Assembly: GCF_003334785.1 (NCBI RefSeq)
Contig: NZ_QOWV01000031.1
Length of the DNA: 23,432 nt
Source: Escherichia coli
Lineage (GTDB): Bacteria > Pseudomonadota > Gammaproteobacteria > Enterobacterales > Enterobacteriaceae
Reading direction: 5' to 3' (one strand)
Made by a program: the position numbers. Positions 7,410-7,988 of this stretch are shown in pieces. Position 1 is the stretch's first letter, and every line of letters begins with the position of its first letter.

Positions 7410-7988
7410 TTACCAGGATGATTCTCAAAACAGCACAAATAATCAAAGATGATTTTTTCGGGAGCGATCCCGCTGACGCCAGAGCCACCAAGGGGTGACG
7501 TGCGTCACATTTCTATTCATAAGTAGCGTTAATCATTCATATAGCGAATATTTTCTTGTCAGCGAAAAAAATTGCGGATAAGGTGATGAACACATCAGAT
7601 TTCCTGGTGTAACGAATTTTTTAAGTGCTTCTTGCTTAAGCAAGTTTCATCCCGACCCCCTCAGGGTCGGGATTTTTTTATTGTGCATTCAACGATTCAC
7701 TTCAGAGACGCTGAAGTCATGAATATCCAGTTCGAAGGCATCCGCCAATTCACGCCATGTATGATATTCACGTCCATCGACGCTAACGTGTTCAGAATCG
7801 TTCTGGCTGCGATGAACTTCGCTTTCGCTAATTTCATTGATCGCCGCCAGCAGGGCATCGACATCGACGCTGACCTCACGTTTTGCGGTATCGCTGTACT
7901 CTTTTGCGGTTTTCATCATCTTTCCTCGCAACCGTTACTCTGTTGTTGCCGCCAGTCGTTAAGTCCGCCTGGCATCTCTTAAGTATAG

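What the first reader, a model, noticed from the sequence alone, without database searches (positions are those of the whole stretch)
7556..7679. DsrA sRNA locus with promoter and intrinsic terminator intact
This is the only clear RNA gene in the window. DsrA links low-temperature signalling to RpoS and relieves H-NS silencing, including silencing of the nearby rcsA, so the regulator and one of its targets are adjacent.
Basis: partly seen in the sequence, partly recalled or inferred. Interest (0 to 1): 0.35.

Follow-up and report, generated by a model that had tools for sequence, protein, structure and literature searches.

The report
Ordinary E. coli dsrA small-RNA gene

Summary
The finding is confirmed and is already known biology.

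- **Family match.** The Rfam DsrA model (RF00014) matches window 7589..7675 (+) over its full length at 102.5 bits (gathering score 60, E 5.7e-19).
- **Identity to K-12.** Window 7544..7700 covers -45 through the promoter, the RNA, the terminator and on to the yodD stop. It is 100% identical to E. coli K-12 MG1655, where the gene is annotated dsrA (b1954).
- **Functional elements.** All are present: three stem-loops, a terminator hairpin followed by six T, a 12-nt perfect complement to the rpoS leader (-118..-107) and a 13-nt perfect complement to hns (+7..+19). Both complements beat shuffled controls.
- **Conservation.** In 77 related loci from about 20 enterobacterial genera the promoter hexamers keep their positions. 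The terminator stem shows compensatory changes at 5 of 10 pairs. The order dsrA-yodD-dsrB-rcsA holds in 56 of 56 testable loci.
- **"Only RNA gene" claim.** It holds by Rfam, ARAGORN and the K-12 annotation.
- **Small correction.** rcsA is nearby, not adjacent. Two genes lie between, and DsrA affects it indirectly and in trans via hns mRNA.

Interest is low.

The parts
7546..7551 (+). Conserved GAATAT block at -43..-38, just upstream of the -35 hexamer. Its function was not tested here.
   Evidence: An ungapped comparison of 70 distinct upstream sequences from about 20 genera gives the consensus 'aatat' at this position. The block is identical to K-12.
7556..7561 (+). -35 hexamer TTGTCA of the dsrA promoter
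   Evidence: Read from the sequence. It is identical to K-12. CTTGTCA is conserved at this fixed distance from +1 across genera.
7562..7578 (+). 17-nt A-rich promoter spacer (GCGAAAAAAATTGCGGA)
   Evidence: From memory of Repoila & Gottesman 2003 (not held in the library), the spacer and the -10 box carry the temperature response.
7579..7584 (+). -10 hexamer TAAGGT. It is a weak match to TATAAT (3 of 6), which is why the generic scan missed it.
   Evidence: It is identical to K-12. TAnnGT is conserved in position across genera.
7589..7679 (+). dsrA transcript. The Rfam match covers 7589-7675 (87 nt); the K-12 annotation, which includes the U-tail, corresponds to 7589-7679.
   Evidence: RF00014 at 102.5 bits, E 5.7e-19. 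100% identical to K-12 b1954. At least 99% identical in 5264 of 5339 matching E. coli genomes.
7592..7610 (+). Stem-loop 1 (nt 4-22): 7 pairs and an AUUUC pentaloop. It is opened when DsrA pairs with rpoS.
   Evidence: MFE fold and Rfam structure line. An NMR structure is described in PMC5766208. The stem is 100% paired in 67 sequences, but nt 8-28 are invariant by ascertainment.
7600..7629 (+). rpoS-pairing region (nt 12-41); the perfect 12-nt core is nt 20-31 (7608-7619).
   Evidence: Against the K-12 rpoS leader, the 12-nt perfect run pairs with -118..-107, and 1 of 1000 shuffles reaches that length. The 30-nt window duplex is -28.6 kcal/mol with -127..-98, z = -3.5, 0 of 100 shuffles.
7619..7631 (+). 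hns-pairing core (nt 31-43, UUUUAAGUGCUUC)
   Evidence: A 13-nt perfect complement to hns +7..+19; 0 of 1000 shuffles reach it. The duplex is -25.8 kcal/mol, z = -4.1. This agrees with the pairing near the hns translation start described in PMC12152304.
7631..7644 (+). Stem-loop 2 upper hairpin, CUUGC-UUAA-GCAAG (nt 43-56)
   Evidence: 99.4% paired in 67 sequences with a variable loop, but the stem is nearly invariant, so there is no covariation evidence. The longer MFE/Rfam-style SL2 is only 77% paired. PMC5766208 reports a stable upper stem and an unstable lower stem.
7649..7679 (+). Stem-loop 3, the intrinsic terminator: a 10-pair stem at 7649-7673, then six T at 7674-7679
   Evidence: Terminator scan and MFE fold. 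Compensatory changes at 5 of 10 pairs, 94.8% of cells paired across 67 sequences, and the observed covariation score exceeds all 500 shuffles and all slid registers.

Best explanation
Window 7556-7679 is the chromosomal dsrA locus of an E. coli strain.

A weak sigma-70 promoter (TTGTCA, 17-nt spacer, TAAGGT) drives an RNA of about 87 nt that ends at an intrinsic terminator.

The RNA acts in trans by base pairing, helped by Hfq. Stem-loop 1 and the U-rich linker open and pair with the rpoS leader around -127..-98. That frees the rpoS ribosome-binding site and raises RpoS synthesis, especially at low temperature, when the promoter is more active and the RNA is more stable. The linker and the 5' side of stem-loop 2 pair with hns mRNA just after the start codon (+7..+19). 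That lowers H-NS and so indirectly de-silences H-NS-repressed genes such as the nearby rcsA.

Shown here: family membership, identity to K-12, the structure, both complementarities, and conservation of the promoter, the terminator and the synteny.

Inferred from literature on the identical K-12 sequence: expression, temperature control, Hfq dependence and the regulatory outcomes.
For: - Rfam RF00014, full-length match at 102.5 bits against a gathering score of 60.
- 100% identity to K-12 b1954 from -45 to +112.
- Same gene order as K-12 and other E. coli: dgcQ, yedP, dsrA, yodD, dsrB, rcsA, fliR.
- Present in 5339 of 5426 complete E. coli genomes, and at least 99% identical in 5264 of them.
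- Three stem-loops, z = -4.67; terminator found by scan.
- rpoS and hns pairing cores are present and beat shuffles.
- 77 homologous loci from about 20 genera; all eight of the most divergent that I tested pass the Rfam gathering score.
- -35 and -10 hexamers conserved in position.
- Compensatory changes at 5 of 10 SL3 pairs.
- dsrB and rcsA downstream in 56 of 56 testable loci.
- Literature: PMC5766208 (structure and targets), PMC4152358 and PMC8544407 (low-temperature expression; DsrA falls 3.8-fold by 4 h after a shift to 37 C), PMC12152304 (rcsA antisilencing via H-NS; hns pairing).
Against: Nothing found argues against it. The limits are these:
- No expression data exist for this strain.
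- rpoS and hns are not in the window, so pairing was tested against the K-12 alleles.
- SL1 covariation could not be tested, because the comparators were retrieved with a pattern covering nt 8-28.
- The generic promoter scan did not call the promoter.
- The primary promoter papers were not available to read.
Confidence: 0.97

Rival explanations
1. A decayed or silent copy: the sequence resembles dsrA, but its promoter or RNA is inactivated in this strain.
For: The generic sigma-70 scan finds no promoter. There is one SNP at -46 relative to K-12.
Against: The whole stretch from -45 to the terminator is identical to the experimentally studied K-12 gene. The -46 SNP lies in a column that is not conserved across genera. 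The scan's miss is explained by the naturally weak -10 hexamer, which K-12 shares.
Confidence: 0.01
2. The hairpin and T-run at 7649-7679 serve mainly as the transcription terminator of the convergent yodD gene, and the rest of the region is untranscribed intergenic DNA.
For: The yodD stop codon (7689-7691, minus strand) lies only 9 nt from the hairpin's T-run. This arrangement is conserved in 53 of 56 loci.
Against: On the minus strand the hairpin is followed by GAAACUUGC rather than a U-run, and the scan calls no minus-strand terminator. This explanation also does not account for nt 4-60, which are highly conserved across genera, nor for the full-length Rfam match or the target complementarities.
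Confidence: 0.01
3. The region encodes a protein: the 116-aa ORF at 7632..7982 (+) starts inside dsrA.
For: The mechanical ORF list contains it.
Against: It starts with TTG inside SL2 and runs through the terminator. It lies antisense to the annotated, conserved yodD CDS over most of its length. No annotation supports it in K-12 or in other strains.
Confidence: 0.005

Closest known systems
DsrA sRNA of E. coli K-12 (b1954; Rfam RF00014)
   Same: Everything that could be tested matches: the sequence from -45 through the terminator is identical, and the flanking genes, the three stem-loop fold, the rpoS and hns pairing cores and the terminator are the same.
   Different: There is one SNP at -46 (A here, G in K-12) and a few more near the yedP start at 7392-7441. 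None falls in the core promoter or the RNA.
RprA and ArcZ, the other Hfq-dependent sRNAs that activate rpoS translation
   Same: They use the same mechanism class: they pair with the rpoS leader to open the inhibitory hairpin (PMC4152358).
   Different: They are unrelated in sequence, sit at other loci and respond to other signals. Neither is in this window, and Rfam reports only DsrA.
DsrA orthologues in Salmonella, Citrobacter, Enterobacter, Buttiauxella, Atlantibacter and other genera
   Same: They share nt 4-47 almost unchanged, the promoter layout, the terminator position and the synteny with yodD-dsrB-rcsA.
   Different: They differ from the window at nt 1-3, in the SL2 loop, in the inner pairs of the long SL2 stem and in the SL3 stem sequence. 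The E. coli-type long SL2 pairing is mostly lost outside Escherichia.

Membership tests
DsrA (Rfam RF00014) | Covariance-model score at or above the curated gathering score, over the full model | tested here: met
   102.5 bits against a gathering score of 60, model positions 1-85 of 85, E 5.7e-19.
DsrA (Rfam RF00014) | Sequence identity to the experimentally characterised E. coli K-12 dsrA, including its promoter | tested here: met
   Window 7544..7700 is 100% identical to NC_000913.3 around b1954.
DsrA (Rfam RF00014) | Three stem-loops, the third being a Rho-independent terminator | tested here: met
   MFE fold at -31.9 kcal/mol, z = -4.67. Terminator scan hit at 7649-7673 followed by T6. SL3 has compensatory changes at 5 of 10 pairs. 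SL1 is paired but could not be tested for covariation. Only the short upper hairpin of SL2 is conserved.
DsrA (Rfam RF00014) | Complementarity of SL1 and the linker to the rpoS mRNA leader (the anti-antisense site) | tested here: met
   A 12-nt perfect run pairs with rpoS -118..-107, reached by 1 of 1000 shuffles. The duplex is -28.6 kcal/mol, z = -3.5. The K-12 rpoS leader was used because rpoS is not in the window.
DsrA (Rfam RF00014) | Complementarity of the linker and SL2 to hns mRNA near the start codon | tested here: met
   A 13-nt perfect run pairs with hns +7..+19, reached by 0 of 1000 shuffles; z = -4.1. The K-12 hns sequence was used.
DsrA (Rfam RF00014) | Genomic position 'downstream of rcsA', between yedP and yodD/dsrB | tested here: met
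   ORFs and annotation. The arrangement is conserved in 56 of 56 loci with enough flank.
DsrA (Rfam RF00014) | An ~87-nt transcript, more abundant at 25 C than at 37 C | not testable with these tools
   Known for the identical K-12 sequence (PMC4152358, PMC8544407). No expression data exist for this strain.
DsrA (Rfam RF00014) | Hfq binding and Hfq dependence | not testable with these tools
   The sequence features usually associated with Hfq binding are present: an A/U-rich linker (AAUUUUUUAA) and a 3' U-tail. Dependence itself is documented for K-12 (PMC5766208).

The most novel reading that the evidence does not exclude
The convergent yodD gene is strictly RpoS-dependent, and its stop codon lies 9 nt beyond the dsrA terminator. 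Its transcript may read through the reverse-orientation hairpin, which has no U-run on that strand, and run into dsrA. That would produce antisense RNA or transcriptional interference. The result would be a local negative feedback loop: DsrA raises RpoS, RpoS drives yodD transcription, and yodD transcription lowers DsrA. The tight convergent layout is conserved in 53 of 56 loci across genera, which fits selection on the arrangement but does not prove it.
Probability: 0.08. Interest if true: 0.4.

Novelty: already known. Interest (0 to 1): 0.04.

Why it matters
It matters little as a discovery. dsrA has been studied since 1995 and this copy is identical to the reference.

Two practical points follow:
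- **Annotation.** RefSeq/PGAP records of thousands of E. coli genomes list no feature at this position (one search shows 'none' under the match). A scan that flags dsrA is therefore correct even where the annotation is silent.
- **Structure.** The comparative set assembled here supports the terminator helix and the short SL2 hairpin. It does not support the long SL2 stem that the E. coli MFE fold and the Rfam consensus suggest. That agrees with the published NMR data.

Tried and rejected
- **Generic sigma-70 scan.** It found no promoter. I explained this by the weak -10 hexamer and replaced the test with identity to K-12 and cross-genus positional conservation.
- **Full-length RNAduplex of DsrA against rpoS and hns.** It was uninformative: shuffles did as well (z = -1.7 and +0.2), because long loop-filled duplexes dominate. 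I replaced it with the longest perfect run and 30-nt window duplexes. One search failed only because the loci were not yet on disk.
- **Primary papers.** Repoila & Gottesman 2003 and 2001 and Lease et al. 1998 are not held in the library (one search was a syntax error). Statements about which promoter elements sense temperature therefore rest on my memory and on secondary sources.
- **Permissive Rfam scan.** It gave three sub-threshold hits: anti-hemB at 7602-7681 (25.7 bits against 49.5), snoJ33 and mir-374. All are far below their gathering scores, and I reject them as chance or terminator-driven.
- **Palindrome GTGACGTGCGTCAC (7495-7508).** The scan called it terminator-like. The motif is found in only 2 of 73 loci, both Escherichia, with degenerate versions in other Escherichia. 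I did not pursue it.
- **ORF 7632..7982 (+).** I rejected it as coding (see rival explanations).

Full report
**What is there**

I read window 7300-7900 directly. Upstream of an A at 7589 the sequence reads TTGTCA (7556-7561), a 17-nt A-rich spacer, then TAAGGT (7579-7584). From 7589 it reads AACACATCAGATTTCCTGGTGTAACGAATTTTTTAAGTGCTTCTTGCTTAAGCAAGTTTCATCCCGACCCCCTCAGGGTCGGGATTTTTTT.

A covariance-model scan of the whole window against Rfam 15 gives a single match at gathering level. It is RF00014 (DsrA) at 7589..7675 (+), model positions 1-85 of 85, 102.5 bits against a gathering score of 60, E 5.7e-19. The permissive scan adds only three far-sub-threshold hits, which I regard as chance. ARAGORN finds no tRNA or tmRNA. 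A terminator scan independently calls a hairpin of 10 pairs (7 G-C) at 7649-7673 followed by TTTTTT. The 87-nt RNA folds into three stem-loops at -31.9 kcal/mol, z = -4.67, and none of 200 dinucleotide shuffles folds as well.

**Where it comes from, and whether it is intact**

The 321 bases around the locus match 5341 of 5426 complete E. coli genomes, many at 100%. The gene order in the window is the order annotated in E. coli and in the curated K-12 record, where dsrA is b1954, an ncRNA at 2025223..2025313:

| Gene | Window coordinates | Strand |
|---|---|---|
| dgcQ | 4870-6579 | + |
| yedP | 6576-7391 | - |
| dsrA | 7589-7679 | + |
| yodD | 7689-7916 | - |
| dsrB | 8079-8267 | + |
| rcsA | 8311-8934 | - |
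| fliR | 9224-10009 | - |

A direct alignment shows window 7544..7700 to be identical to K-12. The nearest difference is A instead of G at 7543, which is -46.

The 141 bases of promoter plus gene are at least 99% identical in 5264 of the 5339 matching genomes. PGAP lists no feature under these matches, so the lack of a dsrA annotation in ordinary RefSeq records says nothing about whether the gene is present.

The generic sigma-70 scan called no promoter. The reason is that TAAGGT matches TATAAT at only 3 of 6 positions, below the scan's threshold. K-12 has the same hexamer.

**Does it carry the functional parts of DsrA?**

rpoS and hns are not in the window, so I fetched the K-12 regions. A full-length duplex calculation was not informative, because shuffled sequences did as well. 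More specific tests were informative:

| Target | Perfect run | DsrA nt | Target position | Shuffles reaching it | Best 30-nt duplex | Target span | z |
|---|---|---|---|---|---|---|---|
| rpoS leader | 12 nt | 20-31 | -118..-107 | 1 of 1000 | -28.6 kcal/mol (DsrA nt 12-41) | -127..-98 | -3.5 |
| hns mRNA | 13 nt | 31-43 | +7..+19 | 0 of 1000 | -25.8 kcal/mol | +6..+53 | -4.1 |

These are the interactions described in the literature. SL1 and the following linker pair with the rpoS leader and free its ribosome-binding site. The linker and SL2 pair with hns, mreB and rbsD mRNAs. SL3 is the terminator (PMC5766208). Pairing occurs near the hns translation start, with recruitment of the degradosome (PMC12152304).

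**Relatives elsewhere**

I scanned one genome per species for DsrA nt 8-28. This returned 77 loci from about 20 genera of Enterobacteriaceae, among them Escherichia, Salmonella, Citrobacter, Enterobacter, Leclercia, Lelliottia, Buttiauxella, Atlantibacter, Trabulsiella, Siccibacter and Franconibacter. Eight of the most divergent all pass the Rfam gathering score for DsrA, at 62-92 bits.

*Synteny.* It is strongly conserved. All 56 loci with at least 1.5 kb downstream carry dsrB and rcsA in the same order and orientation, and 53 of the 56 carry yodD. YedP lies upstream in 50 of 64 loci.

*Promoter.* The layout is conserved in register: CTTGTCA, a 17-nt spacer, TAnnGT, plus a GAATAT block at -43..-38. 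The window's -46 SNP falls in a non-conserved column.

*Structure.* I tested this on an alignment of 67 distinct sequences.
- The terminator helix shows compensatory changes at 5 of its 10 pairs, with 94.8% of cells paired. The observed covariation score exceeds all 500 column shuffles and all slid registers.
- SL1 is fully paired, but nt 8-28 are invariant by construction of the search, so this set says nothing about it beyond A4-U22 becoming G-U in 19 sequences.
- The long SL2 stem of the E. coli MFE fold and the Rfam consensus is only 77% paired. Two of its inner pairs are unpaired in 53 of 62 and in 52 of 63 sequences.
- The short hairpin CUUGC-N4-GCAAG is 99.4% paired with a variable loop, but it is nearly invariant. 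This agrees with the NMR report of a stable upper stem and an unstable lower stem (PMC5766208).

*'The only clear RNA gene in the window.'* This is supported by Rfam, by ARAGORN and by the K-12 annotation. The next annotated ncRNA, rseX, lies beyond drpB, and the window begins inside yedJ.

*The link from low temperature to RpoS.* This is documented for the identical K-12 sequence. Both promoter activity and RNA stability respond to temperature (PMC4152358), and DsrA falls 3.8-fold by 4 h after a shift from 23 to 37 C (PMC8544407).

*Relief of H-NS silencing of rcsA.* This was the original discovery (Sledjeski & Gottesman 1995, as summarised in PMC12152304).

*One loose point.* 'Adjacent' overstates it. 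Two genes separate dsrA from rcsA, and the effect is indirect and in trans. The gene that truly abuts dsrA is yodD. It is convergent, and its stop codon lies 9 nt past the U-tail. yodD is reported as 'the most purely RpoS dependent' of four RpoS-dependent promoters tested (bioRxiv 10.1101/2023.11.09.566509). Both neighbours are thus downstream of DsrA: rcsA through H-NS and yodD through RpoS.

**Rivals**

- A silent copy is excluded by identity to K-12 across the promoter and the RNA.
- A role only as the yodD terminator does not explain the conserved nt 4-60 or the pairing sites. The minus-strand hairpin also lacks a U-run.
- The 116-aa ORF at 7632..7982 is antisense to yodD and has no support.

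**Verdict**

The feature is already known and ordinary. The one speculative idea the data leave open is read-through of the RpoS-dependent yodD transcript into dsrA as a local feedback. I rate that unlikely, and it is untested.

Noticed in passing
window 7680-7916 (yodD on the minus strand; stop codon at 7689-7691): yodD converges on dsrA with only 9 nt between its stop codon and the dsrA U-tail. On the minus strand the shared hairpin is followed by GAAACUUGC, not a U-run. The arrangement is kept in 53 of 56 loci across genera, and yodD is reported as strictly RpoS-dependent, so it lies downstream of DsrA in the regulatory chain. Read-through antisense to dsrA is conceivable.
   Followed up: partly
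window 7614-7647 (DsrA nt 26-59); alignment A2: The long SL2 stem of the E. coli MFE fold and the Rfam consensus is not conserved outside Escherichia: it is 77% paired, and two inner pairs are broken in more than 80% of sequences. The short CUUGC-N4-GCAAG hairpin is 99% paired with a variable loop. This is consistent with the published NMR data.
   Followed up: yes
window 7589-7591 (DsrA nt 1-3); alignment A2: The first three nucleotides (AAC) are conserved only within Escherichia and a few other sequences. Conservation across genera begins at nt 4-5. The 5' end may differ between genera, or these bases may be unconstrained.
   Followed up: no
window 7546-7551: A GAATAT block at -43..-38, immediately upstream of the -35 hexamer, is conserved across about 20 genera. 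It may be an UP-like or factor-binding element of the dsrA promoter.
   Followed up: partly
window 7495-7508: There is a perfect palindrome GTGACG-TG-CGTCAC in the yedP-dsrA intergenic region (-94..-81), which the scan called terminator-like. The GTGAC-N(2-6)-GTCAC motif is found in only 2 of 73 loci, both Escherichia, with degenerate versions in other Escherichia. It could be a factor-binding site.
   Followed up: partly
window 20204-23432: Beyond fliE the window carries emrE, ybcL, ybcM and the edge of an IS200/IS605 tnpA. K-12 has the intG/yedN prophage remnant there instead. 1512 of 5426 E. coli genomes hold at least 80% of this 3.2-kb stretch in one place, though not necessarily at this locus. 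In K-12, as I recall it, these genes sit in the DLP12 prophage. This looks like a strain-variable prophage-remnant junction next to the flagellar region.
   Followed up: partly
E. coli genomes, e.g. NZ_CP117971.1 strain B-1109 (hit H40): In strain B-1109 the best place covers only bases 1-78 of the 141-base query, and the match is in two places. That suggests dsrA is interrupted near nt 33. 87 of 5426 genomes show no match at all, and two matches lie on plasmids.
   Followed up: no
loci L006-L082: No Klebsiella or Raoultella locus was returned by the exact 21-mer of DsrA nt 8-28. I cannot tell whether their DsrA differs within this segment or is absent.
   Followed up: no
loci L006, L010, L016, L025, L027, L031, L035, L042, L063, L072 and others: In 14 of 64 loci with enough upstream flank, YedP is not found next to dsrA (Citrobacter freundii-group and some other loci). 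In some of these dgcQ sits directly upstream instead. The upstream boundary of the locus is therefore less conserved than the yodD-dsrB-rcsA side.
   Followed up: no
RefSeq E. coli records: PGAP-annotated genomes list no feature over dsrA ('none' under the match). Only the curated K-12 record annotates it.
   Followed up: yes
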